Positions 6,967 through 62,148 of a stretch of 62,731 bases of DNA are shown piece by piece. Source of the stretch: a virus (Duplodnaviria > Heunggongvirae > Uroviricota > Caudoviricetes); the IMG/VR virus record IMGVR_UViG_3300037510_000569, positions 1-62,731 of that record; one strand, written 5' to 3'. The notes beneath the pieces are model-generated. The model saw nothing but the letters and a program-made list of their open reading frames with translations, made no database searches and was not told the DNA's origin. Numbering within the stretch: position 1 is the stretch's first letter; every line of letters begins with the position of its first letter. The position numbers and the translations under genes are program-made.

Positions 6967-7054
6967 GGACTTCCTCCTTGGTCGGGTGTGCCAACAAAGT
7001 TAGCAGAATCGTGTATGGTGTGCAGCAGAATCAACCCGACCAAGGAGGCCAGCG

Positions 7055-22648: not shown

Positions 22649-22729
22649 AAGCTCCCTTCCCTTGGTCGGTTTCGTCGCCAACAAAGTTATCAGCTACGCG
22701 GTAAGCTGTGGACCCCGACCAAGGAGGAA

Positions 22730-37512: not shown

Positions 37513-37548
37513 ATCTGTGATGTTAGCGCGCCATGCTACGGTCACGAT

Positions 37549-49319: not shown

Positions 49320-49705
49320 ATCGGGGCGAAGAAACTGCTTGGGCGGCGGGTTTGTTTGAGGGCGAGGGTTGCGTCTCTCGGTACATCACGACCAAGCGCT
49401 CTCGGCAATACGGCTACTGGCAGACCAAGTTGAGCAGCACGGATCTCGATGTTGTCGAGCGATTTTGCGAGATCGTTGGTGTTGGACGAATCTATGTGCA
49501 AAAGCGCTCCAATCCCGATTGGAAGCCTGCCTATCAGCACTGCATCTACCGCCAGCCGGAGGTACTTGCCACGCTGGAGCTTCTTCGTCCTTTCATGCTG
49601 GCGCGGCGTGCCGCCAAGATCGACGAGGCACTTACCGAGATGCGCGGGCGTGTTTACAAGCCGGGCCGGCGAGCAACGCCTCAGCGCGAGCTTGCCTCCC
49701 GCTAA
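49316..49705 (+). CDS. single-motif LAGLIDADG-type endonuclease
   Basis: AWAAGLFEGEGC motif, GVGRIY; lower GC than its neighbours. Confidence 0.75.
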   Translation: MNRGEETAWAAGLFEGEGCVSRYITTKRSRQYGYWQTKLSSTDLDVVERFCEIVGVGRIYVQKRSNPDWKPAYQHCIYRQPEVLATLELLRPFMLARRAAKIDEALTEMRGRVYKPGRRATPQRELASR

Positions 49706-49736
49706 ACTTCTTGGCAACCGACCAAGGGAGTCCTCG

Positions 49737-50152
49737 ATGTACGACAAGCGCTTCTACGCGCTGCTGGCTGTGATCTTCTTGCTGGGCTTGTTTCTGGGTC
49801 TCGCTGGCAGGCTCTTTGTCGTCTTCTTCATCGTCCTGCTCGTCCTGCTCGCGGTAGCCCTCGCGTCCCTCGCAAGGCGGCGGCGGTGAGACACCCGATC
49901 CGTCGCATCCGGGTCCAGATCGCGCTGTGGCAGATGCGCCGCGCCGGTCACCTGAGCCGCGAACGCGACGAGAACGGCAAGTGGCTCTACAGCCTGACCG
50001 AGGAGGGGAAGCGATGGACCGAGCGCGAACAGGAGCGCCGCGGAGAAGCCCGCATGGTCGCCCACGAGCAACGCAGGCTCCCGCGCGTGCCCGCCAACGG
50101 GCGCGAGGTCGCCGCCGAGCAGATGCTTCGCGGGAACTGGTGGCCACGATGA
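49737..50152 (+). other. small TM peptide and winged-HTH-like CDS
   Basis: 49737-49889 (hydrophobic), 49886-50152 (WLYSLTEEGKRW). Confidence 0.55.
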
Positions 50153-50293
50153 AGACCTACGTTGCGGCGGGCCGTGGCTTCATCCTGATCGACGGCTGGA
50201 AAGGTCCCTGATCGTGTCTTGGTGGCAACGACTCGTTCGCCGCTGGAACCGTCGCTATGGTCGGCACCCCGTGCTGGAAGGAGTCTCAGGCTG

Positions 50294-52114
50294 ATGGCGA
50301 CGATCACCGACCTCTTCTGCGGGGCTGGCGGCTCGAGCATCGGCGCTGAGATGGCGGGGGGCGAGCTGCGCCTCGGCCTGAACCACTGGCCGCGCGCGAT
50401 CGAGACCCACGCGACCAACTTCCAGCACGCCGATCACGACTGCAACGACGTGTCGGCGTTGACCACGGCGCAGATCAGGGGCTACCCAGACTCCGACATC
50501 CTGCTCGCCTCACCGGAGTGTACGAACCACTCCCTCGCCAAAGGCGGGCGGCGCCGCAAACCGCAGCGCGGCTCGCTGTGGGAGGACGGCCCAGCTGGGG
50601 ATGCCGAGCAGGAACGCTCGAGGGCGACGATGTGGGATGTCGTCCGCTTCGCCGAGCAGAAGCTGTTGAAGGGCAAGCCCTACAAGATCATCGTCGTCGA
50701 GAACGTCGTGGACTCCTTCAAGTGGGGCTACGAAGACGACGGCGGACTCTTCCGAGCTTGGCTGGAGGCGATGCGGGCGCTCGGCTACGAGCACGAGATT
50801 CTCTGGCTCAATTCGATGTTCTGTCACCCGACCCCGCAGTCTCGGGACCGCATGTACGTGGTCTTCTGGAAGCGCGGCATGGTCGCGCCGAACCTGCGCG
50901 TCGAGCCCTTCGGCTGGTGCCCTCACTGCGAGAAAGCGATCAACGGTCGGCAGACCTGGAAGAAGCCGACTCTGCCTTGGGGCCGCTACGGGGCGCAGTA
51001 CTTCTTCTCCTGTCCGCTGTGCAACGGGGCGATGCTTCCCGGCGTCTTCCCGGCCGCCTCGGCGATCGACTGGAGCCTGCCCGCCGAGCGGATCGGCGAT
51101 CGCAAGAAACCGCTGGCCCAGGCGACGCGCGAACGCATCCGCCGCGGCCTGGAGAAGCTCGGCCGTGAACCCTTTGCGATTCGGCTCACCCACGGCGGCT
51201 CGCCGAAGCCGCTCACCCTGCCGATCGTCACGCTGACCCAGCGCCACGATATGGCGATGGTGATGCCGGTGGCCGGTAACACCTTCGAACGGACGCCGGG
51301 CAATCGCGCCCGCGACGCCGACGCTCAGCCCTGCGACACCGTTCACACGACGCTCGATCGCGCGATGGTCGTGCCGCCGATGGGGAACGTCGCCCCGCGC
51401 GACGCCGACGCCGCGCCGGTGCCGACCCAGACGACCTCGACGCGCGCCTCCCTGGTGATGGCGAACACCGAGAACAACGTCCCACGCGACGCTGAGCAAG
51501 AGCCCACGCAGACGCTGCGCACCGAAGGCGGACTGGCGATGGTGATGGCGAACCGCGCTCACAACGTGCCGAGGGACGCCGCCGAGAGCGCGGCGCCGCC
51601 GCTTCTGACCGGCAGCCACCTCGCCGTCGTCATGCGCAACAACAAAGGCGGCGCGGAGATGTCCACCCCTGCCGACAAAGAGCCGATCAGGACGCTGACG
51701 GCGGGATGCCACCAGTCTCTGATCGTGCCCTACGACCGCACCGGGGAGCCGCGGCCGGACTCCGAGCCGACGCCGACGTTGACCACGCGCGATCGCCTGG
51801 CGATGCTGGTCCCCTTCACGCGCGAGGCGCGCCCGCGCGATGTCGATCGAGAGCCGCTGACGACGACGACCGCGGAAGGACCGCCAGCGATCGTCCTCAC
51901 CGAGGAGGACATAGACGCCTGCCGCTTCCGCATGTTCGACCTCCACGAGATCGCCGAGGCGATGTCGATGCACACGCACGTCGACGGCGGCGAATACGTC
52001 GTCCTCGGCAACAAGCGCGAGAAAATGGCGCAGTACGGCAACGCGGTCACGCCGCCGGCGATGCGCTGGATTCTGGAAAGGTGCCTGCCGGTCCTGGGGA
52101 GTGCGGGCGGTTGA
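50294..52114 (+). CDS. C5-cytosine DNA methyltransferase with internal repeats
   Basis: TDLFCGAGG, LASPECTNHS, VVENV, QSRDR, YGNAVTPP. Confidence 0.9.
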   Translation: MATITDLFCGAGGSSIGAEMAGGELRLGLNHWPRAIETHATNFQHADHDCNDVSALTTAQIRGYPDSDILLASPECTNHSLAKGGRRRKPQRGSLWEDGPAGDAEQERSRATMWDVVRFAEQKLLKGKPYKIIVVENVVDSFKWGYEDDGGLFRAWLEAMRALGYEHEILWLNSMFCHPTPQSRDRMYVVFWKRGMVAPNLRVEPFGWCPHCEKAINGRQTWKKPTLPWGRYGAQYFFSCPLCNGAMLPGVFPAASAIDWSLPAERIGDRKKPLAQATRERIRRGLEKLGREPFAIRLTHGGSPKPLTLPIVTLTQRHDMAMVMPVAGNTFERTPGNRARDADAQPCDTVHTTLDRAMVVPPMGNVAPRDADAAPVPTQTTSTRASLVMANTENNVPRDAEQEPTQTLRTEGGLAMVMANRAHNVPRDAAESAAPPLLTGSHLAVVMRNNKGGAEMSTPADKEPIRTLTAGCHQSLIVPYDRTGEPRPDSEPTPTLTTRDRLAMLVPFTREARPRDVDREPLTTTTAEGPPAIVLTEEDIDACRFRMFDLHEIAEAMSMHTHVDGGEYVVLGNKREKMAQYGNAVTPPAMRWILERCLPVLGSAGG

Positions 52115-52257
52115 GTCCCTTGGTCGCGCTGCGCTTCCTGGTGCTCGGCGCTGTCGTCGGCGGATTGCTCTTGCTCTTTGGCGCTCCGCTTTGGGCCTAC
52201 TACGTCGCGTTCGCCGCGACGCCCCTTCTCGTGCTCGAGCTTCGCCGCGATGCCTGA
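52111..52257 (+). CDS. small membrane protein
   Basis: TTGA-coupled, two TM helices. Confidence 0.5.
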   Translation: MSPLVALRFLVLGAVVGGLLLLFGAPLWAYYVAFAATPLLVLELRRDA

Positions 52258-52687
52258 CCCCTTCCTCGTCGTCGATGCCTCCTTCGACGAAAACCTCAAG
52301 ATGGCTGGCATCGCTGCGGCCTGGGACACCGGCCGGGTGATCGCCACCGAGGTCGCCAGCGCACCCAACGGCAACGTCGCCGAGGTCCTGGCTGCGATCC
52401 GCGCGACCTCCTTCCTTGCTGCTCGCCAGGAACACGGCCTGACGATCGTCACCGATGCCGTGTTCATCATCGACTGCCTCTACGGGGACGGCCAGCGCGG
52501 GGATCAGATGGTGATGGCTCGGATCAAGGACCTCAGACGCTTCCTGGAGCGCCGAGAAGCAACGATGCGCTATGGCGAGCGCCGAGAGGTCAAGGCCGCC
52601 CACAACGCCGCCAGGGGCGCTCTGAAGGCTTGGAAAGCGGGCCGCAAAGAGGAATCGACCTGGCGCTGTCCTGTCGAGGTCACTTAA
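52250..52687 (+). CDS. RNase H-like protein
   Basis: VVDASF, NVAEVLA, IVTDA, AHNAAR match the D-E-D catalytic layout of RNase HI. Confidence 0.7.
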   Translation: MPDPFLVVDASFDENLKMAGIAAAWDTGRVIATEVASAPNGNVAEVLAAIRATSFLAARQEHGLTIVTDAVFIIDCLYGDGQRGDQMVMARIKDLRRFLERREATMRYGERREVKAAHNAARGALKAWKAGRKEESTWRCPVEVT

Positions 52688-52772
52688 CGCAGTTTGCGGG
52701 TTCAACCGCGACGAGCATCGGCTCCGCTCGCTAGCTTCGCGCCTACCAGTCAACGAGATTTCAGGAGGTCCA

Positions 52773-53342
52773 ATGTCCGAGCGTCCGAGGCTCCCCGTCT
52801 CGTTCCTCAAGCAGTTCAAACGCGAACGCCTGATGGAGGCCGCCGCCAGCGTCATCGCCCGCAAGGGCTACAACGACACGATCGTCTCCGACCTCGTGAG
52901 CGAGGCCAAAGTCGCCCGCAACACCTTCTACGAGACCTTCTCCTCCAAAGAGGACTGCTTCCAGTCAACGGTGCGCTGGATAGTCGAGCAGGCCACCGAC
53001 CGGATCGAGACCCAAGTCAACGGCTACACCGACATCAACGAGCGGATCGAGGCGGGGATGGAGGCGCTGGTCGAGTTCGTCCGGGAGTACCCGCACTGGA
53101 CGACCTGCTGCCTGATCGAGGCGCCGGCGGGCGCTCCTGAGCTCTACCAGGAGATGCTCGAGCGCGCAGCGGAGCGCTCCGGCCTACCCGCGCCCGTCAA
53201 CGAGATGGTCGTCGGCGGAGTCGCCTTCATCCTCTACCGCTACGCCCTGGTCGGCGGCGACGGCGACGAGCAGGAGCTTCTCAAGGGGCTGAAGGAGTTC
53301 GCCCAGAACAGCTTCGCTGCGGTCGAGCTACAGACGCGCTAG
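52773..53342 (+). CDS. TetR-family regulator
   Basis: RERLMEAAASVIARKGYNDTIVSDLVSEAKVARNTFYETFSSKEDCF; SD AGGAGG. Confidence 0.9.
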   Translation: MSERPRLPVSFLKQFKRERLMEAAASVIARKGYNDTIVSDLVSEAKVARNTFYETFSSKEDCFQSTVRWIVEQATDRIETQVNGYTDINERIEAGMEALVEFVREYPHWTTCCLIEAPAGAPELYQEMLERAAERSGLPAPVNEMVVGGVAFILYRYALVGGDGDEQELLKGLKEFAQNSFAAVELQTR

Positions 53343-53513
53343 ATGTCCGCGCTGATGGTCTACTGGTGCCCGGCCTGCATGAGGGCCTGGCCGGTCGCCA
53401 GCGGACCGAAGTGCGCAGGATGCGAGAAAGAGCGCGGGACCGCCGACGCTTTCTCGGTGATCGAGCACCTGGTGGCTATGCTCCCCGGACCCGACCCGAC
53501 CAAGGAGACGTAG

Positions 53514-54638
53514 ATGGCGCTGGTGCATCCTGAGTCCCACCCGCTCGCGGACAAGAAGATCAAGGTCGCGCTACGCGGCAATCCGATGCAAGCCCTTCAC
53601 GACGGCGTGGAGATGCGCGTTGAAGACTGGTGGAGCTGGGCGCACGAAGACAACGAGCGCCAGGGCGATCAACCCCAACTGCTCGCTTCGATGAGCCCTG
53701 CAGCGCAGATGTACGTGCTCCGCGCCAAAGCCGCCGGACTCCCGGTTGACGACGACGTGATCTACGGCAAGGTCCGGGTGGCTCCCCCAAAGGGCGTGAT
53801 CGATCTCGGCGGCCAGGGGGTCGGCGTCGGCTACATCATCCACAGCTCCGAGATCGGCGAGGTCGTCCCTGACTGATGGCAAGCTGGAGTGGATGAGCAT
53901 CGAAGCCGAGGCCAAGAATCTGCGCGCTATCAAGGCCGCGATCATCGAGCACAACGGCAACTGCGGGATGCGTATTCTCGCCATCTTGATGAACCCCTTC
54001 GAGGTCGACCGCTTGGGCTGGGACGAGTTCGAAGGCATCCCGATCACCGGCGACTCCAAAATCTGCACGGGAACGTTCCATCTGCTCTGCGAAGGCGACC
54101 ACGGCAAGTCCGAGGTGCAAGAGCGCGAGACAGTGCTGGTCGGCAAGGAGGTCTAAGTGCCCGAGATACCGCTTTACCTTGACGACGCCCATCCCGAGGC
54201 TCGCACGCAGGTCGGAATCGTCCATGTTGATCAGGTCGGCAACGATCTGCAGATCAACGGCACGGTGCGGCTCTTCCCCGGCTTCGAGCACCTCAAGGAT
54301 CAGTTGGGTCAGACCTTGGACGTGACCGCCGGGTTCGGGCCGAATGGGGCCACCTTCGTGCTGCGAGAGAAGCGTTGAGCGAGGAACTCAACCAAGCGCC
54401 CGTCGGTCGGGTAGCGGCGAACCTCATGGAGAGGATCGAAGGCATCGTTGAGCGAGAGGGGCGCTTGCCCAAAATCGGCGTTGTCGCCTTGGTCGTGGAG
54501 CTCGATTGGCCGGCCGAGGAGGAGGGAAGACCTGGCAGCACCGAGGTTCTGTATCACTGCAACGATCCGCGGCGCTGGGTCCAGAAGGGCATCTTCCAAG
54601 CAGCTGCCGCAGCCGTTGATCGCGTCCCCGAGGTCTAG
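53514..54638 (+). other. run of hypothetical CDSs
   Basis: 53514-53876, 53893-54156, 54157-54378, 54375-54638. Confidence 0.6.
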
Positions 54639-54645
54639 TCAACTT

Positions 54646-54654
54646 TGTTAACGT
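54646..54654 (+). promoter_or_regulatory. extended -10 promoter TGtTAACGT
   Basis: TGn-TAnnnT just upstream of the ncRNA/tRNA-Ala/tRNA-Cys unit. Confidence 0.5.
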
Positions 54655-54668
54655 AGTTGGCGAGCCTC

Positions 54669-54826
54669 TGGCGAAGGGGCGGGCACGGTGGCCTAGCACC
54701 AGCCACGGGCAAGGAGCGCTTGGGCCGAAGCGGGGCGAGAGGACCGGATACCGCCTCAAGCCGCAGTCGGTCGCGTTGGCGCAGTCGAAGATCGGGGTGG
54801 CACCCCGGCGCCTTGCCCCTTCGTCA
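54669..54826 (+). ncRNA. multi-branched structured ncRNA, unknown class
   Basis: 15-bp P1 54669-54683/54812-54826 with 3 G-U pairs; inner GTGGC/GCCAC, CAAG/CTTG, GAGG/CCTC, CGGGGT/ACCCCG. Confidence 0.65.
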
Positions 54827-54850
54827 CGCTCCACTTGTATTCTGGATAGC

Positions 54851-54923
54851 GGGCCTGTAGCTCCAACGGAAGAGCGGCTCCCTTGCAAGGAGAAGGTTCC
54901 GGGTTCGAATCCCGGCTGGTCCA
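54851..54923 (+). tRNA. tRNA-Ala(TGC)
   Basis: G3-U70, CT TGC AA, CCGGG TTCGAAT CCCGG, A73. Confidence 0.9.
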
Positions 54924-54925
54924 CT

Positions 54926-54998
54926 CCCCGGTAGGAATCCGGGCGGCTCGTATCCGGTAGGCGTTGCCCTGAGCCGGGCGACCGCCGCTCTACCGGGG
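54926..54998 (+). ncRNA. long hairpin spacer between tRNAs
   Basis: CCCCGGTAG/CTACCGGGG plus GGCGG/CCGCC and CCGG/CCGG. Confidence 0.4.
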
Positions 54999-55004
54999 AT
55001 ACGC

Positions 55005-55076
55005 GACCGGGTGGCTGAGCGGCTAGGCGAGGGACTGCAAATCCCTTCGACGCGGGTTCGAATCCCGCCCCGGTTT
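55005..55076 (+). tRNA. tRNA-Cys(GCA)
   Basis: AGGGA CT GCA AA TCCCT, GCGGG TTCGAAT CCCGC, U73. Confidence 0.9.
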
Positions 55077-55130
55077 TCTCTCCGTTCGTCGCTGATAGCC
55101 TCCGGTCTTCAACCCGACCAAGGAGGATTC

Positions 55131-55442
55131 ATGAAGAAGCTGTCTCTTGTGGCGCTGATCTTCGCGCTGCTCGCCGGTGGCGTCGTGGTTGGCTGTGGCT
55201 TCGGCCCCGACGAATCACGCGAGGACGCGACCGACACGAAGAATGTCGATAAGACCGAACCCGAGGCGATCGCCTTCAACAACCACTTCCCGAACGTCGA
55301 GACGAAGTGCGATCAGCACGGGCACCGGATCTTCGTGTCCACCCACGACAGCTCGACCGGGAACAACCTGATCGTGCTTCCCGATCCGACGTGCCCTGGC
55401 TACGTCAAGGGGCAAGAGCCGCCGGTCGTCGTCTCGCCATGA
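55131..55442 (+). CDS. putative lipoprotein
   Basis: MKK plus hydrophobic stretch plus VVGC lipobox-like motif; CCGACCAAGGAGG SD. Confidence 0.65.
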   Translation: MKKLSLVALIFALLAGGVVVGCGFGPDESREDATDTKNVDKTEPEAIAFNNHFPNVETKCDQHGHRIFVSTHDSSTGNNLIVLPDPTCPGYVKGQEPPVVVSP

Positions 55443-57498
55443 GCCAGACCCAAGCTGAGAACTACCTCTACCGCAAGGAGCTAGACGACGGTCGGGAGAT
55501 CGTCGTCTACCCCATGCTCTTCACCGACCGGCTGTGCATTGGCGTCGCCGGTGACGGTGGCTACGAACGCGCCTGGTGCTACCCACGTCTTCATCCGGCG
55601 GGGCAGACCACCGCGGTCATTGCGGCCGAAGCCTGGGACGGTGAAGGCGACCCGCCAGTCGGCTGGATCAAGGAGGTCGGCACCGAGCGGCGCAGGGTCG
55701 ATGGAGATCCCGAGCGCGAGTACGACGCGAGCAGGGAACCCAAGCCCGCCTGATGTATCTCCTCGGCTTTACCGCAGACGGCACCCGCATCCAGATCAAC
55801 GACGACCCCTACGCGGTCAAGCGCAACAGCGACCCCCGCGTCCTCTTCGACGGCGAGGAGGTCGAAGTCACGTCGATCTCCCGCTACCGCGACGGCGGCA
55901 CGACGGTGATCGAGACCGAGCGCGGCCGACTTGTCGCGCATCGGCGCGTAGGGGAAGAGCCCTGGGATGAGTTCGAGGACGAGCGCCTGAAGCCCGAGGG
56001 TCCTTTGAGCACCTTCGCAGCGGTGATGACGACGGACGGGATCACCTTCGTGCGCCTCCCCGACGGGCGCTGGACGCGGCTCGAACCCGAGCAGGTCCTC
56101 ATGACGGACGTAAGCGGCGGCACGGTCCACAACATGAACGGGCCGCCGCTGAAAAACGAAGCGCACCGCGAGGTCGCGGCGAAACTGGAGCACGCGCTTC
56201 AGCAAGCCCGCATCCGGTCCGGTCTGTGAGCTACATCGCCTGGCACACCCGCGATGAGGGCACCGCCGAGCTTCGCGGCTCGGAGTACGCCCATGCCAGG
56301 GGTGTCTGTACCGACCTCGCCCTTGGCCTGCTGCGAGCCGCGATAGCCATGAACCACAAGCGCCTCATCAGCTTCCTTCACAACCCGCCCGACTACGTGA
56401 GGAAAGAGCCCGAGCCGGCCGAACACATGCGCTGGGCCTCCGGCCTGAAGACCTGGCTGAACGTCGATGGCGAAGTGAGCATCGACGGGGAGACGATGAG
56501 CTTCGGCGAGATGGCGATGAACACCGCGATCACGATGAACCGCCCGCTGCGCCTGCTCGCTTGGATGGCCGGGATGTCGGAGAACCACGGCTACTTCGAG
56601 CGCCCCGAGCAGAGCGCCCTGATCGAGGCGATCAGCGAAGGGCTGGACGCGAGGATTCTCCGCGCCGATCAGGGCTGGGATCGCGTCTACGACCTGCTGG
56701 AGCGCAACGTCGCCGCCGGTGGCAGTGCCGTCGTCTGGAGCTTCAGCGTCGCCGAGTCCTGGCCGGATGTCTGGATGCTCGACGACCGCCCAGACCCAGA
56801 CGATGACGACGCGGTTGCCGCCTGGGAGGAGCGCTGGTATCTCTTCGGTGAAAGCGACCAGGAGCGCCGCGAGGCAGGCAAGCCAACGAGCGGGGAGATT
56901 TGGGACCTGTGCATGGAGAAGTTGCGGGCGCAGGACTGGCCCGTCCCCCTGGACCTCGAGGTCGAACAGGGCTATCGCAGCGGCAAGACGACCTTCGACT
57001 TCCTCGCCCAGCTGAGCTGAAAGGAGACTGAATGAGGCAGGCAGAACGCGAGACCGAACTGGTCAAGGCGCTGCTGGACATCGGCGCGGGTTGCACCGCT
57101 GAAGACCCGGACGCGCACGCGCGCGTCGCCCTGGAAAGCATCTACGGCCCGAACTGGCGCAAGCTCAAGGGCCACGAAATCGACGAGTGGGTTGCCGAGT
57201 CGGAGAGGGTGTCGGGCTGATGCGCCTGCGCTTGCGAATCGACAGAGCGATCGAAGGCGGGCATACCCACGTCACGGTCTTCGAGGGCAAAGAGCATGGC
57301 CCCAACCTGGGGAAGCTCGTCTTCGACTCCGCCAAGTTCGCCGGTCTCGTGCCCGGCGTCCTGCGCTTTGAGAACGATGCTGTGATCCACGACGCCAACG
57401 ACAAGAGCGTGATCGGCGTCGGGGATACCTTCGAAGTTGAGGTCCGCGCGACGCGAGTCGTGCGCCGCCACGGGCTTTCGACCGCTCGCAGCGGCTAG
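55439..57498 (+). other. run of hypothetical CDSs
   Basis: 55439-55753, 55753-56229, 56226-57020, 57032-57220, 57220-57498. Confidence 0.6.
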
Positions 57499-57527
57499 TC
57501 TGCCGACAACCGACCAAGGAGGATCAG

Positions 57528-57806
57528 ATGGGGTTGATGAAGGTCATGGGACCTGAGGGCGACACGGAGATCGCCTGGGACCCAGACGACAAAGCCAGCG
57601 TCGAGAAGGCCAAGGAGGAGTTCAACCGCCTGAAGAAAGACGGCTACGAGTTCTTCGAAGTCGCCGAGACGAAGGGCAAGCAGGTCAAACGGTTCTCGAA
57701 GAAAGCGGGCAAGCTGATCGCAGCGCCGCGGGCGGCCAAAAGCCAGGCCGAGAAGACCGGCGGCCGGGCGATGGCCGGCGGTCCGCTGTCCAGCCTCGCT
57801 CGATGA
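57528..57806 (+). CDS. small protein with a near-terminal GG motif
   Basis: GDTEIAWDP..AKEEFNRL..GY..RF..KLIAAP..AMAGG followed by PLSSLAR. Confidence 0.7.
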   Translation: MGLMKVMGPEGDTEIAWDPDDKASVEKAKEEFNRLKKDGYEFFEVAETKGKQVKRFSKKAGKLIAAPRAAKSQAEKTGGRAMAGGPLSSLAR

Positions 57807-58621
57807 ACCTTCCCTACGGGGGGTCGCCTGACGAATGGATCGCGCGGGATGGGCTTCCCGCCGCGATCCTGGGCGACGCGATCAAAGGCAAGGTAGGCGG
57901 CCTCCCGAGCGCCGAAGACGATGACGGCTTCGTCGTCTACGAGCAGATGATCGTCTTCAACAAAGGGGGCTTCGCCCAGGTCCACTGTTTCCCTCGCAGC
58001 TACATAGGGACCTGCATGGCTTTCGGAGGCGGACTCGTGCCGCTCCATCACCAGCCCTCTCAGCGCTGGGCCTACCGGCCGTGCATCTACCGCTGGCACG
58101 CCGAGCGGACCTGGCAGCGGCAGGGGAGCCAGCAGGAGCTCGACTGGCGCTACGCCCAGCACAAGGCGTTTGAGGCGCTCCAAGGGGGCGTACAGGCACT
58201 CTGGCGATACCTCGAAGCTGATCCGCTCGGACAGGCAAATCGCCGGGCTGATGAGCTGTTGGAGTCCATGCTCGGGTCGACCCAGATCACCGAACTGTTC
58301 ATGCGCGGTGGAACCTTCCGCGTGATCGGCGGCGCCACCGGGCACCACTACCGCATCGAGCTCGGCAACGGCTTCGCTCGAGTCGATCCGGCGACCAACG
58401 AGCCGATCACCAGCTACTGCCTGCACCCCGAAGACTGGATGCCGCACGCCGATGTCGCCCTCGCCCACAAGCTGAACCTGGAGTGCCCCGAGCTCGAGGA
58501 GGAGACGATCAAGCGCGCCAACGCGCGCGACCTTCCGCGCTATGAGGACGAAGACAGCCCTACGGAGCTGCGTCGCCTTCGCTACGCCGCCGACATGGAG
58601 CGGGAGTTGATCGCCGCGTGA
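57803..58621 (+). CDS. conserved phage protein, partner of the GG protein
   Basis: ATGA-coupled; G.TG.HYRI..YCLHP..P.ADVALA.KL.LE..E..AN. Confidence 0.65.
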   Translation: MNLPYGGSPDEWIARDGLPAAILGDAIKGKVGGLPSAEDDDGFVVYEQMIVFNKGGFAQVHCFPRSYIGTCMAFGGGLVPLHHQPSQRWAYRPCIYRWHAERTWQRQGSQQELDWRYAQHKAFEALQGGVQALWRYLEADPLGQANRRADELLESMLGSTQITELFMRGGTFRVIGGATGHHYRIELGNGFARVDPATNEPITSYCLHPEDWMPHADVALAHKLNLECPELEEETIKRANARDLPRYEDEDSPTELRRLRYAADMERELIAA

Positions 58622-58821
58622 GCGAACAGACTTCGCTGGAGGGGACCGACTGCTGCAAGTACCGCAACTGCCCGCGTCCTGTGGTCGGCTCGTCGACCAC
58701 CGGCAGGGGTCATGTCTGCAAGGGCCACAACGAGTTCGAGTGGGGCGAGGCGCTGCGGGAGTACGACCCGCGTCTCAGCCGCGCGCTGTTAGCCGACTCC
58801 GAAAGGACGCTCGATGGGTAG
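58618..58821 (+). CDS. small Cys/His protein
   Basis: CCKYRNC..HVCKGH. Confidence 0.5.
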   Translation: MSEQTSLEGTDCCKYRNCPRPVVGSSTTGRGHVCKGHNEFEWGEALREYDPRLSRALLADSERTLDG

Positions 58822-59320
58822 GCCGCTGCTCTTCCTCGACGTAGATGGCGTGCTGAACGCCTGCCCGCCGCTCGACGGCGTGCCGGTCTTCAACGCGAAA
58901 GGCTTCCCTATCTGCGTGCCGCCAGGGACCAAAGAGCGCATCGCGCGTCTGCTCGAGGCCTTCGATCCGGTGTGGGCGACGACCTGGCGCGGGGACGCGC
59001 ACGCGCACTTCTGCGAGGCGATCGGGGTCGATGAGGACCCGCCCTGGGATCACATCGACTCTCCGCGCGGTGGCGCTTGGAAGCTGCCAGAGATCCTCCA
59101 GTACGCCTGGACGCTGCGGATGAGCGGTCCCGATGTCCACCAGCCGTGGGTCTGGATCGACGACGACGGCCGCTGGGAGATGCAGCAGCACGGCCTCTGG
59201 CACGACAAGGTTCAGACCCTCGTGATCTGCCCCGACACGGCGAAGGGGCTGACCGACGAGCATGTCGAGGAAGCGCTCGCCTTCGCCGAGAGGCTGAAGG
59301 AACATGACCCTTATTCCTGA
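58814..59320 (+). CDS. HAD-superfamily phosphatase (Swiss-army-knife RNA-repair type)
   Basis: LLFLDVDGVLN, VWATTW, K, VWIDDD, GLT..H. Confidence 0.8.
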   Translation: MGRPLLFLDVDGVLNACPPLDGVPVFNAKGFPICVPPGTKERIARLLEAFDPVWATTWRGDAHAHFCEAIGVDEDPPWDHIDSPRGGAWKLPEILQYAWTLRMSGPDVHQPWVWIDDDGRWEMQQHGLWHDKVQTLVICPDTAKGLTDEHVEEALAFAERLKEHDPYS

Positions 59321-60016
59321 CCACTACCGCTACCCGATTCCCGGCCTCGGGATGGAACGGACGCGCTTCAGCGCGCTCGATGTCGCTGAGGTCCAGATGG
59401 GCCGCGATCGCAACGGTGCCTACAGCGATGCGAGGGCCAGGATTCCCAGCGAGGACGCGAAGCGTCTTGGCGAACGCGAGGGTCGCGCTGTAGCTCATAC
59501 GATTCGCTTGAGGGCGGCACGCGAAAAGCTCGGCGAGTGGCTGACGTGAGTCTCTTCCGCAAGCGCTGGGAGGTCTGGGTCCACTACCGGCTCGGCGACG
59601 AGATCATCAAAAGCCGTCTGCTGAAGAGGCATCGCTTTCTTTGGTGGGCCAAGCAGTGCCACGAAGGGGTCGTGCATAACCCCGCAGTGCTCTTGGCGAT
59701 CATGGAGAGCCTTGACGACGACGGGCGCATGATCTTCCCCGAGCTGGAGTACCGCCGGACCTAGTTGGCGCGCAAGCCGCCCGTTCACTGGCAACCCGGC
59801 ACCGAAGCCAAGCTCACCTACACCGACCACGGAGTCCCGCCGTGGCCCAACGGCACCCCCGTCGTCGGCGACCTGCTCGCATCGGAAGCCGGGGGCGCTT
59901 GGGTGATCGAAGAGGTCAAGCAGTCCAAGAGCAACCCCGCGCGCCTGAACCTGGTCGTCGTGAGACTTGAGTACGGCTCGATCGACATGGACGAGGAGGG
60001 CGTCTGGCCGCTTTAA
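59304..60016 (+). other. three small hypothetical CDSs
   Basis: 59304-59549, 59537-59764, 59765-60016. Confidence 0.55.
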
Positions 60017-60019
60017 ATT

Positions 60020-60248
60020 GGGGTAAATGAATCGGCTTGAATGGCGTGAAGGCTTCGCTGAGCCGCTTGCGCGACGGCTCGCCCTGAATCTTGTCGCCGC
60101 GGGACCCTTCTGAGTCGATTAGCTGCATCGGACTCACAGTATAGAGCTATCGACGCGATGTATAAGTGGATTTTGGTTTAACGCCGCGCAATCGCCGGGC
60201 CTTTTCGCCCGGCGCGGCAGGTCCCGCGCCAAGTCGACCCGCTACCCC
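60020..60248 (+). ncRNA. tmRNA-shaped structured RNA with an internal mini-ORF and no T-arm
   Basis: Nested closing helices GGGGTA/TACCCC, TCGGCT/AGTCGA, TGGCG/CGCCA, CGGGACC/GGTCCCG; pseudoknot; ORF 60158-60181; lies between convergent genes. Confidence 0.55.
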
Positions 60249-60418
60249 CTCTGCAGGCGCGCCTCGGCGCGCCGCAGGCTCAGGTGGACCAAGGTCGCCG
60301 CCGCGCGCTCGTCTTGGAAGGGACCGTGGGCCTCGATCGCCGCCCGAACCGGCTCGGCGACCGGACCGTCGGCGACGAGCTCCGCTGACTGGGGACGGCG
60401 CTGATCGGCAGCAGGTAT
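60242..60418 (-). CDS. small hypothetical protein (start uncertain)
   Basis: GC3-rich frame ELVADGPVAEPVRAAIEAHG..LSLRRAEARLQRG*. Confidence 0.4.
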   Translation of the reverse strand: MPAADQRRPQSAELVADGPVAEPVRAAIEAHGPFQDERAAATLVHLSLRRAEARLQRG

Positions 60419-60426
60419 GGTCCTTC

Positions 60427-60502
60427 GCGGCGAAGGCGGTTGACGCAGAGATACCTTTCGGCTGCGTTTTGACCGCATAAGGGGCGGTGCCGTCTTCGCC
60501 GC
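60427..60502 (+). ncRNA. three-way-junction RNA candidate
   Basis: 13-bp P1 60427-60439/60490-60502, GACGCAG/CTGCGTT, ACCGC/GCGGT. Confidence 0.45.
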
Positions 60503-60515
60503 TAAACTGCTCCGT

Positions 60516-60587
60516 GGCGCTGTGGTCTAGCGGCTAGGACACCGCCCTCTCGAGGCGGGGGTCAGGGTTCGATTCCCTGCAGCGCTA
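60516..60587 (+). tRNA. tRNA-Glu(CTC)
   Basis: CCGCC CT CTC GA GGCGG, TTCGATT; -10 TAAACT 7 nt upstream. Confidence 0.9.
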
Positions 60588-60595
60588 CTGCACAA

Positions 60596-60667
60596 GCCTT
60601 CATCGTTCAATGGCCAGGACGCCGCCCTGTCGAGGCGGAGATCGCGGTTCGAATCCGCGTGGGGGCG
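60596..60667 (+). tRNA. tRNA-Asp(GTC)
   Basis: CCGCC CT GTC GA GGCGG, CGCGG TTCGAAT CCGCG, G73. Confidence 0.9.
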
Positions 60668-60677
60668 TAGACCGTGC

Positions 60678-60745
60678 GCGGGCCTAGCTTAGATGGCAAA
60701 GCGCTGGCGCTGCCGGAGATTCGGGCTCGGCTCCCGTGGCCCGCA
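60678..60745 (+). ncRNA. tRNA-like RNA lacking an anticodon loop
   Basis: Perfect acceptor GCGGGCC/GGCCCGC, D stem GCTT/AAGC, stem CTGGC/GCCGG with a 3-nt loop, T-loop CTCGGCT. Confidence 0.65.
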
Positions 60746-60827
60746 GCGGTCTAGTCCGACCGCTTCTCTACCTTGCGCAGCAGTCGGTGAGTAGACGCTC
60801 GCCAAGTCCAAGTCGAGGAGGAACACG

Positions 60828-61355
60828 ATGGAGAAGCCCGATTTCGATGTGGTCAACACGGTCGGCGCAGCAGATGCTCTCGCCAAGCTGATCTCCCAGA
60901 TCACCGAGGACCGTGATTGGCCTGGCCTCACCGCCCTGCAGGCCGGCCTCGAGGTCTACGAGAATCATCGCTACCCCAACCAGGGGCAGAGCACGACGCC
61001 GTTCACCGCGATCGAGGAGCAGATCGCCCAGGCCAGCTGGGTCCTCCGTCGCCTCGTCGCCCTACACGGCTTCCAGGCCACGCTGACGGTCTACGGCGGA
61101 GACTTCGAAGAGCACGGCACCAACGTCCACCGCGGCGTGAGGGTCAACGTCTTGCGGCGATCGCTCGACCTTGACCAGATTCGGGCTATCACCGAGTTCG
61201 CGGAGGACCACGGCTGCGACGCCGAGTGGTCTCAGGAGCACGGCGTCACGCTGCGCCTACGGCCGATCATCGAAGCCGAAGTCTCGACTCCCAAAGTGTC
61301 GATCACGGGCTCAGGAGGTATCGAAGGGGTCACCTCGACGGCTGTGACGCTTTAG
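60828..61355 (+). CDS. hypothetical protein
   Basis: SD GAGGAGG; GC3-rich ORF. Confidence 0.65.
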   Translation: MEKPDFDVVNTVGAADALAKLISQITEDRDWPGLTALQAGLEVYENHRYPNQGQSTTPFTAIEEQIAQASWVLRRLVALHGFQATLTVYGGDFEEHGTNVHRGVRVNVLRRSLDLDQIRAITEFAEDHGCDAEWSQEHGVTLRLRPIIEAEVSTPKVSITGSGGIEGVTSTAVTL

Positions 61356-61458: not shown

Positions 61459-61732
61459 GCGCCGTACCAAGCACCGACGCCGCTACCACACCGGCCGCGT
61501 CATCTCGAACCGCCAGCGCCGCCAGCGCCGCCTTGACCGGGCGCTGTGGGTCGACGGGACCGGGACCTGGGTTCTCCCCAACGGGAGGCTCGACGACACC
61601 GATCGCTACCACGACTGCGGCCGGCCGCGCTGCCTGCTCTGCCACTGGGACAAGTTCGACCCGAGCCGTCGCGCGCGGGAGAAGCGCGGTTGGCGCCGCG
61701 AAGTCGATCTCGAAATGCAGCAGGTAGGGTGA
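61457..61732 (+). CDS. Arg-rich small protein with a CxxxxCxxC motif
   Basis: HDCGRPRCLLCHWDK. Confidence 0.65.
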   Translation: MRRTKHRRRYHTGRVISNRQRRQRRLDRALWVDGTGTWVLPNGRLDDTDRYHDCGRPRCLLCHWDKFDPSRRAREKRGWRREVDLEMQQVG

Positions 61733-61755
61733 GGCGCCCGACCAAGGAGGAGAGA

Positions 61756-62148
61756 TTGCCGGACCTCAGCCGCTTCACTGACCGCACCCGCAAGGTCCTC
61801 GACGGCGCGTTGCGAGAGGCGCTGTCACTGGGCCACAACTACATCGGCACCGAGCATCTCTTGCTCGCCCTGGTCCGCGATGAAGACGAGACGGTCGCCT
61901 ACATGGCGCTGCAGCGATTCGCCAGCGCCGACGAAATCCGCAACGAGGTCATCCGTCTGCTCAGCGGCAAGGACGCGATCAGTGATCCGGTGCCCGAGCG
62001 CAAGGCGTTGGACATCGCCAAGGAGATCGTCGAGAAGCACCTGGCCGACGCACCCGAGGACCCGAGCACTCCGGTCAACATCCCCGAGGTCATCACGGCC
62101 TTGGCGTTGGTGGCGATCGCCGAAGCCCTGGGAGAGAAGCCATCGTGA
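61756..62148 (+). CDS. stand-alone Clp N-terminal (ClpC-type) domain protein
   Basis: RFTDRTRKVLDGALREALSLGHNYIGTEHLLLALVRD; TTG start after CCGACCAAGGAGG; no AAA domain. Confidence 0.85.
   Translation: MPDLSRFTDRTRKVLDGALREALSLGHNYIGTEHLLLALVRDEDETVAYMALQRFASADEIRNEVIRLLSGKDAISDPVPERKALDIAKEIVEKHLADAPEDPSTPVNIPEVITALALVAIAEALGEKPS

What the first reader, a model, noticed from the sequence alone, without database searches (positions are those of the whole stretch)
54669..54826. ~160-nt multi-branched ncRNA leading the tRNA-Ala/tRNA-Cys operon
Seen: starts ~15 nt after an extended -10; a 15-bp closing helix with three G-U pairs encloses four to five hairpins; no credible ORF. Its terminal stem GGCGAAGG/CTTCG resembles that of the 60427 element. 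Inference: a novel ncRNA family; the long stem plus compact domain recalls Y/Yrl or SRP-type RNAs, but their conserved motifs were not found.
Basis: partly seen in the sequence, partly recalled or inferred. Interest (0 to 1): 0.7.

Follow-up and report, generated by a model that had tools for sequence, protein, structure and literature searches.

The report
Orphan structured spacer before phage tRNA-Ala
A 160-172-base non-coding stretch in front of two tRNA genes of an uncultivated G+C-rich phage can fold as described and sits between two promoter-like sites. It has no relatives anywhere, folds little better than chance, and is not one of the phage's real Y RNAs, which lie 33 kb away next to its Ro60 gene.

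Summary
The stretch is non-coding. Its lowest-energy fold is a 16-bp closing helix around four hairpins. Stability is not exceptional: z is -2.25 for the hand-picked ends, -0.59 for the whole spacer, and about 10% of arbitrary genome windows fold as well once composition is allowed for. Only the long closing helix is somewhat unusual (5 of 400 shuffles).

No Rfam family matches. No copy exists in this phage, in six related phage records, or in the public metagenome and genome collections as far as near-exact word scans can show. So there is no family and no covariation to test.

The suggested Ro60 check was positive. The phage encodes Ro60, but with its own array of six Y RNAs directly upstream, supported by covariation. 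The element does not fit that model and lacks its GGUUAYC signature. It does carry three copies of the loose GNCGAAG motif. The likeness to the 60427 stem is chance.

A -10 hexamer followed by 7 nt marks the start of tRNAs and Y RNAs in this phage. The same geometry puts a start at G54662, the first paired base.

Best reading (0.4): a lineage-specific small structured RNA or leader in a tRNA region, function unknown. A chance fold in a promoter-bearing spacer is nearly as likely.

The parts
54375..54638 (+). Last gene of the upstream + strand unit (87 aa, no known family). Its stop TAG is at 54636-54638.
   Evidence: ORF list and codon-position GC. No homologue beyond the same phage in one Logan contig.
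54640..54654 (+). A+T-rich promoter-like stretch CAACTTTGTTAACGT. It holds the extended -10 TGtTAACGT (hexamer 54649-54654). It overlaps a partial copy of the phage's class-1 promoter core (consensus TGCTAACTTTGTTGG, here with C for the first T of TAACTT).
   Evidence: Sequence. Six of the genome's seven ACTTTGTT words lie in promoter-leader cassettes; this is the seventh. TANNNT is enriched in spacers, 160 of 304 against 66 expected.
54662..54833 (+). Putative 172-nt RNA. The predicted start G54662 lies 7 nt after TAACGT. An outer 4-bp helix pairs GAGC (54662-54665) with GCUC (54830-54833), so both termini are paired.
   Evidence: Folds of the whole spacer and of this stretch (z -1.83). The start is inferred from the '-10 plus 7 nt' rule. 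No expression data.
54669..54684 (+). 5' arm of the 16-bp closing helix. It contains GGCGAAG (54670-54676).
54687..54710 (+). Two small hairpins: GGUG-GCCUAG-CACC and GCC-ACG-GGC.
54711..54715 (+). Unpaired AAGGA junction, part of the Shine-Dalgarno-like CAAGGAG. It could alternatively pair, as GGGCAAGGAGCGC, with GCGCCUUGCCC of the 3' arm.
   Evidence: The alternative pairing was read from the sequence and not tested.
54716..54782 (+). Inner irregular long hairpin. Its 5' strand carries GGGCCGAAGCGG (GCCGAAG at 54724-54730).
   Evidence: z -1.47. The 12-mer shared with one Y unit is at chance level (E 2.6).
54783..54807 (+). Unpaired AGUCGAAGAU (third GNCGAAG, 54784-54790) followed by the hairpin CGGGGU-GGC-ACCCCG.
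54810..54826 (+). 3' arm of the closing helix. It overlaps the -35/spacer zone of the tRNA-Ala promoter.
54838..54843 (+). -10-like TATTCT, exactly 7 nt before the mature 5' end of tRNA-Ala. This is the likely own promoter of the tRNA pair.
   Evidence: Five first-of-cluster tRNAs in the two phages have TANNNT at exactly 7 nt, against about 0.06-0.14 expected among 52 tRNAs.
54851..55076 (+). tRNA-Ala(UGC) 54851-54924, an 80-nt structured spacer with a 9-bp closing stem CCCCGGUAG/CUACCGGGG, and tRNA-Cys(GCA) 55005-55076.
55096..55133 (+). Next transcription unit: -10 TAGCCT (55096-55101), the phage's standard leader CCGACCAAGGAGG (55114-55126) and the ATG at 55131 of a small signal-peptide/lipoprotein-like gene.

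Best explanation
The stretch is a small non-coding transcription unit specific to this phage lineage, about 172 nt long (54662-54833). It was probably gained together with tRNA-Ala. The proposed working is as follows.

1. It is transcribed from a -10-only promoter of actinobacterial type (TGtTAACGT).
2. It starts at G54662.
3. It folds so that its first and last bases pair. A 4-bp outer helix and a 16-bp closing helix enclose four hairpins.
4. It ends, or is trimmed back to, that terminal helix a few bases before the separate -10 (TATTCT) that starts tRNA-Ala at its mature 5' end.

In kind it would be a stable small RNA, or a cleaved-off leader, of a phage tRNA region, like RNAC and RNAD of T4. 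Its target is unknown.

Shown: it is non-coding, the fold exists, the promoter-like hexamers are there, and their spacing rule holds. Inferred: transcription, the ends, stability and any function.
For: 1. It is non-coding, and the fold is better on the + strand, the strand of all neighbouring genes.
2. This phage builds its small RNAs as '-10 hexamer, 7 nt, first paired base ... terminal helix, 4-12 nt, next -10'. Y-RNA units U2-U5 follow this. So do five first-of-cluster tRNAs in G000 and G001, against 0.06-0.14 expected.
3. The element obeys the same rule. TAACGT plus 7 nt gives G54662, the first base of the outer helix in the fold of the whole spacer. The next -10 begins 4 nt after the helix.
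4. TANNNT hexamers lie in both short flanks. Their rate in spacers is about 2.7 per kb per strand, so each flank has roughly a 6-8% chance of holding one.
5. A spanning helix of at least 16 bp is uncommon in shuffles, 5 of 400.
6. There is precedent: T4 transcribes two small RNAs of unknown role from its tRNA region (PMC3014915, PMC9697503).
Against: - There is no homologue and so no covariation. It is absent from the closest relative G001 (large terminase, TerL, 82% identical) and from four to five more distant relatives.
- Fold energy is ordinary for 72% G+C DNA.
- The -10 hexamers are low-information, and the upstream one is not of the phage's commonest TAGNCT type.
- The 4-bp outer helix could be picked up by any folding program.
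- Other spacers of this phage also fold into stem-closed shapes, so the shape is not distinctive.
Confidence: 0.4

Rival explanations
1. There is no RNA-level function. The stretch is G+C-rich spacer DNA that came in with tRNA-Ala. It carries only promoter signals for the tRNAs, and its fold is what any sequence of this composition gives.
For: - z is -0.59 for the whole spacer.
- 10% of arbitrary windows fold as well after composition correction.
- 118 inverted repeats of at least 12 nt lie in the window.
- It is a singleton with no conservation.
- The words shared with 60427 and with the Y units are common in the genome.
Against: - A 16-bp spanning helix occurs in only 1.25% of shuffles.
- The + strand folds better, through its G-U pairs.
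- The -10 hexamer sits at the spacing that puts the start on the first paired base.
- 158 nt of neutral DNA would be unusual in a phage that otherwise packs promoters and leaders tightly.
Confidence: 0.33
2. It is a terminator or insulator. The stable structure 30 nt after the last gene of the 53514-54638 unit stops or stalls read-through just before the tRNA promoter and protects the mRNA 3' end. It would be a hairpin terminator without a U-tract, as predicted for many actinobacterial genes (recalled from the literature, not checked here).
For: - It sits right after an operon end, and its 3' arm abuts the next -10.
- The same layout is seen at tRNA-Glu in G000 and, with an unrelated sequence, in G001.
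- No canonical + strand terminator with a U-tract lies nearby.
Against: - A helix closing a 125-nt multi-branched interior is a poor kinetic terminator.
- No U-run follows either the last hairpin or the closing helix.
- The upstream -10-like site would be unexplained.
Confidence: 0.15
3. It is a divergent ligand of Ro60. This would be a Y-like RNA, or a sponge with several sites, that binds the phage Ro60 through its three GNCGAAG motifs. It would link Ro60 and host PNPase to the tRNA region.
For: - The phage encodes Ro60 on the same strand.
- GNCGAAN0-1G near the 5' end is the proposed Ro60 contact in YrlA and YrlB (PMC4201824).
- The element has GGCGAAG at bases 2-8 of its terminal helix and two more copies. 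Three copies in 158 nt occur in only about 6 windows of the genome.
- The 60427 element also starts with GGCGAAG.
- The termini are paired, as in Y RNAs.
- Ro60 is reported to bind RNAs other than Y RNAs (PMC12135203).
Against: - It is 33 kb from Ro60, while six bona fide Y RNAs sit right beside it.
- It scores 8.2 bits, E 1.1, on the model of those Y RNAs.
- It lacks GGUUAYC, whose six + strand copies lie one in each Y unit.
- It has no T- or D-arm and no YrlA match.
- Here the motif is fully paired, not in the internal loop.
- GNCGAAG occurs 1.3-1.5 times per kb per strand.
- It is absent from G001, which has Ro60 and three Y RNAs.
Confidence: 0.1

Closest known systems
[quoted passage not shown]
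   Same: A phage-encoded, non-coding, structured stretch of 100-200 nt placed among tRNA genes, with no known role. It is the closest analogue in kind.
   Different: The T4 RNAs are experimentally detected. This one is only predicted. There is no sequence or structure relation, none was tested for, and none is expected. The host is actinobacterial-type, with -10-only promoters.
Bacterial and phage Y RNAs: YrlA/YrlB (Rfam RF02553; PMC4201824) and Yrl1/Yrl2 of Thermus phage phiLo (PMC12135203)
   Same: A terminal helix formed by the 5' and 3' ends, a GNCGAAG word near the 5' end, and a genome that encodes Ro60 on the same strand.
   Different: No match to YrlA or to the phage's own Y-RNA model. 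No GGUUAYC/YUAY and no T- or D-arm. The motif is paired rather than in an internal loop. It is 33 kb from Ro60 instead of within 4 kb. It is not kept in the sister phage that keeps Ro60 and its Y RNAs.
5' leaders and spacers of tRNA precursors removed by RNase P
   Same: It lies directly upstream of a tRNA on the same strand. It would be released as a fragment if transcription starts at 54662 and reads on.
   Different: tRNA-Ala appears to have its own -10 placed 7 nt from its mature 5' end, so it does not need this leader. The leader would also be unusually long and structured.
Hairpin terminators of Actinobacteria without a U-tract (recalled from the literature, not checked here)
   Same: A G+C-rich structure within 30 nt of a stop codon, with no U-run.
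   Different: It is multi-branched with a long-range closing helix rather than a simple hairpin.

Membership tests
YrlA / Y RNA (Rfam RF02553; criteria of PMC4201824) | Match to the Infernal YrlA model at or above the gathering score (69 bits) | tested here: not met
   No YrlA match over 54669-54826 even at E up to 10. The whole-genome search with RF02553 hits tRNAs and the Ro60-side units only.
YrlA / Y RNA (Rfam RF02553; criteria of PMC4201824) | Encoded within 4 kb of the Ro60 gene on the same strand | tested here: not met
   Ro60 (TROVE, 150 bits) lies at 88093-89705 of the record, about 33.3 kb downstream on the same strand.
YrlA / Y RNA (Rfam RF02553; criteria of PMC4201824) | GNCGAAN0-1G motif near the 5' end | tested here: met
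   GGCGAAG at 54670-54676, plus 54724-54730 and 54784-54790. The motif carries little information: 1.3-1.5 per kb per strand.
YrlA / Y RNA (Rfam RF02553; criteria of PMC4201824) | tRNA-like domain (T-arm GGUUCGA-type loop, D-arm) and YUAY after the motif | tested here: not met
   No tRNA-clan match in the element. ARAGORN gives only a poor artefactual call at a 70% threshold. No YUAY in the sequence.
YrlA / Y RNA (Rfam RF02553; criteria of PMC4201824) | Binds Ro60 | not testable with these tools
   The complex predictor takes proteins and small ligands only.
This phage lineage's own Y-RNA family (model R2 from 6 + 3 units) | Score on the covariance model. The model has two covarying helices around a CGAA(G) / ACCCCACG internal loop. 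| tested here: not met
   The nine units score 49-104 bits. The element's best score is 8.2 bits, E 1.1 in 6.2 kb with filters off.
This phage lineage's own Y-RNA family (model R2 from 6 + 3 units) | GGUUAYC directly after helix 2 | tested here: not met
   GGTTATC occurs 6 times on the + strand and never on the - strand. One copy lies in each of the six Y units, and none in the element.
SRP RNA, tmRNA, tRNA, 6S, riboswitches, ribozymes and all other Rfam 15 families | Any match | tested here: not met
   A scan at gathering scores and a scan at E up to 10 found only the two tRNAs.
Common family with the 60427-60502 element | Shared sequence and structure beyond the GGCGAAGG/CUUCG stem words | tested here: not met
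   Model R1 of the element finds nothing at 60427 at E up to 10. GGCGAAGG occurs 30 times in the genome.
Canonical intrinsic terminator | G+C-rich hairpin followed by a U-run | tested here: not met
   No + strand site in 54000-61000. The sequence after 54807 and after 54826 is not U-rich.
Protein-coding gene | Codon-position GC pattern of this genome, or homologues | tested here: not met
   GC2 is 0.66-0.67 against 0.36-0.45 in genes. Neither open frame has a homologue. It is not called as a gene in a public gene call.

The most novel reading that the evidence does not exclude
The element, and perhaps the 60427 element too, is a second, structurally unrelated class of Ro60 ligand. It would be placed at the head of tRNA operons and carry one to three GNCGAAG contact sites in its terminal and inner helices. 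Through it the phage would recruit its Ro60, with host PNPase, to tRNA-region transcripts, or buffer free Ro60.
Probability: 0.08. Interest if true: 0.65.

Novelty: new member of a known kind. Interest (0 to 1): 0.27.

Why it matters
If the RNA is real, it adds one more phage small RNA of unknown role in a tRNA region, a class unexplained since T4's RNAC and RNAD. It would be in a phage that also runs a Ro60/Y-RNA system, so a link between the two could be tested by a simple binding assay.

As it stands the element is a single unconserved sequence with an unexceptional folding energy, so its weight is low.

The useful by-products are firmer:
- the true Y-RNA array beside Ro60;
- a precise promoter geometry (-10 hexamer plus 7 nt) that starts tRNAs and Y RNAs at their mature 5' ends.

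Both help in reading every other 'structured spacer' of this phage.

Tried and rejected
- **Known RNA families.** Rfam at gathering scores over the whole 135-kb record and at E up to 10 over the locus found nothing but tRNAs here.
- **tRNA or tmRNA remnant.** ARAGORN with introns and lowered thresholds gave only artefacts: a 'tmRNA' whose tag is the end of the upstream gene, and a 'tRNA-Leu' with a 5-nt T-loop and a mispaired anticodon stem.
- **Paralogues and homologues by model.** Single-sequence covariance model R1 found none in G000, G001 or G002-G006. It also found none in two Streptomyces phage loci that hold the nearest tRNA-Ala or in six genome contigs sharing a 20-mer.
- **DNA searches.** blastn against 50,697 phage records matched only the tRNAs. 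Two-anchor and single-word scans of viral and metagenome contigs found nothing.
- **Synteny route.** The upstream 87-aa protein has no relatives. The 264-aa downstream protein has none in viral contigs. An alignment of the 272-aa downstream protein with its G001 homologue found nothing in metagenome contigs.
- **Expression.** The one other assembly of the phage (a Logan contig from SRR12692787) gave no DNA.
- **Split promoter-leader cassette.** I considered that the element plus the tRNAs had been inserted into a cassette (AACTTTGTT upstream, CCGACCAAGGAGG downstream). I rejected this because the downstream gene has its own TAGCCT -10 at the normal distance.
- **Shared words.** The 12-mer GGGCCGAAGCGG shared with Y unit 1 and the CACGCTC after the helix are at chance level (E 2.6; 23 copies on the + strand).

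Full report
**Setting**

The window is the first 62.7 kb of a 134,735-bp IMG/VR phage record with direct terminal repeats and about 66% G+C. Nearly all genes are on the + strand.

- Its large terminase is only 26% identical to those of SPO1-like Bacillus phages.
- The closest public relative is one 130-kb uncultivated phage, G001, with terminase 82% identical.
- A few more relatives lie at 45-57%.
- The record carries 26 tRNA genes.

**The observation**

The interval 54639-54850 lies between the stop of an 87-codon gene and tRNA-Ala(UGC). tRNA-Cys follows 80 nt later.

The stretch is non-coding.
- Its GC by codon phase is 0.66/0.81/0.67. Neighbouring genes show GC2 of 0.36-0.45 and GC3 of 0.75-0.86.
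- The two long open frames across it have no relatives among 5.8 billion proteins.
- A public gene call of the same phage leaves the gap empty.

A 16-bp closing helix (two G-U pairs, one bulge) encloses two small hairpins, one long irregular hairpin and a 6-bp GC hairpin. An extended -10, TGtTAACGT, ends 14 nt upstream.

Is it more than chance? Only marginally.
- The shuffle z-score is -2.25 when the ends are set on the helix.
- It is -1.83 for the 172-nt version.
- It is -0.59 for the whole spacer.
- I folded 2692 windows of 158 nt across the phage and regressed on G and C content. The element's residual is z -1.26, and one window in ten does as well.
- The one unusual feature is the long spanning helix. 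At least 16 bp over at least 100 nt arises in 5 of 400 dinucleotide shuffles of the spacer.
- The + strand folds 9 kcal/mol better than the - strand.

**Known families**

Rfam 15 gives nothing except the tRNAs, at gathering scores and at E up to 10. So it is not an SRP RNA, 6S RNA, tmRNA, riboswitch, ribozyme or YrlA. ARAGORN at relaxed settings yields only artefacts.

**The Ro60 lead**

The phage does encode a TROVE/Ro60 protein (PF05731, 150 bits) at 88093-89705 of the record, 33 kb beyond the element on the same strand.

Directly upstream of that gene lies a tandem array of six Y-RNA-like units (87262-88061).
- Each unit sits behind a -10 such as TAGACT.
- Each begins ...GGGCCGAAG-N(5-8)-GGUUAUC and ends ...ACCCCACGCUCGGC.
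- Three units contain a tRNA-like T-arm and D-arm.
- G001 has Ro60 with three such units.

The nine units align well. Nine of the 17 predicted pairs in two helices show compensatory changes.

A covariance model of them (R2) scores the units at 49-104 bits. The element scores 8.2 bits, E 1.1 in 6.2 kb with filters off. GGTTATC occurs six times on the + strand and never on the - strand, one copy in each Y unit and none in the element. So the element is not a Y RNA of this phage's family. Nor is it a YrlA by the published criteria (PMC4201824):
- it is not within 4 kb of Ro60;
- it has no T- or D-arm;
- it has no model match.

One published feature is met. The motif GNCGAAN0-1G, proposed as the Ro60 contact, sits at bases 2-8 of the closing helix and occurs twice more inside. 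The 60427 element also opens with it. The motif is weak, though. There are 380 copies in the genome, and about six windows of 158 nt hold three. I keep Ro60 binding as a low-probability reading.

**Likeness to the 60427 element**

This is chance. GGCGAAGG occurs 30 times in the genome, and the element's model R1 does not find 60427. The 60427 element is by itself a much better-supported fold: z -5.1, with the MFE structure at 60% of the ensemble.

**Relatives**

There are none.
- R1 finds no second copy in the phage and nothing in G001 or in five more distant relatives.
- blastn against cultured phages matches only the tRNAs.
- Word scans of viral, metagenome and genome collections find nothing real.
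- The flanking proteins lead to no further contigs.

Comparing gene order shows that 49449-54850 is specific to this phage. That block holds a cytosine methylase, a TetR-like protein, small genes, the element and tRNA-Ala. G001 shares the genes from 55439 on, and there tRNA-Cys follows a gene directly.

The tRNA-Ala has no close counterpart in any relative. Its nearest matches, at 87%, are in Streptomyces phages, where the gene happens to lie just downstream of their Ro-like gene. No counterpart of the element is present there. Without homologues no covariation test is possible.

**What the phage's own grammar says**

- Many genes start with the leader CCGACCAAGGAGG-N5-7-ATG. It is preceded at 8-11 nt by a -10 of type TAGNCT, or by the longer cassette GCTGCAC-N13-TGCTAACTTTGTTGG.
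- TAGACT and its kin are strongly enriched in spacers.
- For RNA genes the rule is sharper. A TANNNT hexamer lies exactly 7 nt before the mature 5' end of five first-of-cluster tRNAs in the two phages, against 0.06-0.14 expected among 52 tRNAs.
- The same hexamer lies exactly 7 nt before the first paired base of Y units U2-U5.
- tRNA-Ala has TATTCT at this spacing, so the tRNA pair probably has its own promoter and does not depend on the element.

Applied upstream, TAACGT plus 7 nt gives G54662. In the fold of the whole spacer, G54662-C54665 pair with G54830-C54833 outside the closing helix. The predicted transcript, like the Y RNAs and tRNAs, would therefore begin and end in one terminal helix, with the next -10 four bases later.

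This is the best positive evidence that the stretch is a discrete small-RNA unit. It is circumstantial: the hexamers carry little information and the outer helix has only 4 bp.

**Verdict**

My readings and their weights are:
1. A lineage-specific small structured RNA or leader of a tRNA region, function unknown (0.4). It is comparable in kind to T4 RNAC and RNAD.
2. A chance fold in a promoter-bearing spacer (0.33).
3. A terminator or insulator between the upstream unit and the tRNA promoter (0.15).
4. A divergent Ro60 ligand (0.1).

The claim of a 'novel ncRNA family' is not supported, because there is one sequence and no conservation. Interest is low to moderate. The Y-RNA array and the promoter geometry found on the way are the more solid results.

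Noticed in passing
outside the window: G000 87262-88061 (L006:5262-6061, +); G001 (L018:3143-3452, -): A tandem array of six Y-RNA-like genes lies directly upstream of the phage Ro60 gene (88093-89705). The sister phage has three. Each unit has its own -10 (TAGACT, TAGGCT, TAAACT or TAGTGT). The signature is GCCGAAG...GGUUAYC ... ACCCC(A)CGCUC. Two helices covary in 9 of 17 pairs. Three of the six G000 units and one of the three G001 units carry a tRNA-like T-arm and D-arm. Rfam YrlA scores only 37-41 bits, below its cut-off of 69. Four more distant relatives lack the family.
   Followed up: yes
window 37513-37525 (-), 54838-54850, 60503-60515; L010 890-902 and 1566-1578 (-): A TANNNT hexamer lies exactly 7 nt before the mature 5' end of five first-of-cluster tRNAs: Arg-ACG, Ala and Glu in G000, and Glu and Cys in G001. 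About 0.1 would be expected by chance. This suggests that these tRNAs are transcribed without a 5' leader, so that the first tRNA may not need RNase P.
   Followed up: partly
window 60425-60503 (+): A Y-shaped element (14-bp closing helix, two hairpins) lies between a -10-like TATGGT and the TAAACT -10 of tRNA-Glu. Its z-score is -5.1 and the MFE structure holds 60% of the ensemble. G001 has an unrelated sequence with an 11-bp closing stem at the same position (L010:905-990, -), whose fold is not significant.
   Followed up: partly
window 6984-7048, 22668-22727, 39573, 55096-55133, 57497-57530, 61725-61760 and others; also beyond the window: Two promoter-leader grammars recur. One is GCTGCAC-N13-TGCTAACTTTGTTGG(CAC). 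The other is TAGNCT plus 8-11 nt. Both run into the near-invariant leader CCGACCAAGGAGG-N5-7-start codon. The core CGACCAAGG occurs 32 times in G000, most copies directly before a start codon, and both grammars are conserved in G001.
   Followed up: partly
window 54925-55004 (+): The 80-nt spacer between tRNA-Ala and tRNA-Cys is itself closed by a perfect 9-bp stem (CCCCGGUAG/CUACCGGGG) around an irregular hairpin. Stem-closed spacers seem to be a habit of this genome.
   Followed up: no
window 49449-54850: This block is absent from the closest relative G001. It holds a C5-cytosine methyltransferase (50219-52114), a TetR-family protein (52773-53342), five small ORFs, the element and tRNA-Ala. 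The genes from 55439 onward are shared. The block looks like a lineage-specific accessory insertion.
   Followed up: partly
L050:1419-1664 (Streptomyces phage Alone3) and L051:1418-1664 (pSt2308): In these cultured Streptomyces phages the Ro-like gene is followed by tRNA-Ala and two tRNA-Lys genes. The roughly 245-nt spacer between the two tRNA-Lys genes is conserved between the two phages and unannotated. It is a candidate non-coding RNA next to Ro60.
   Followed up: no
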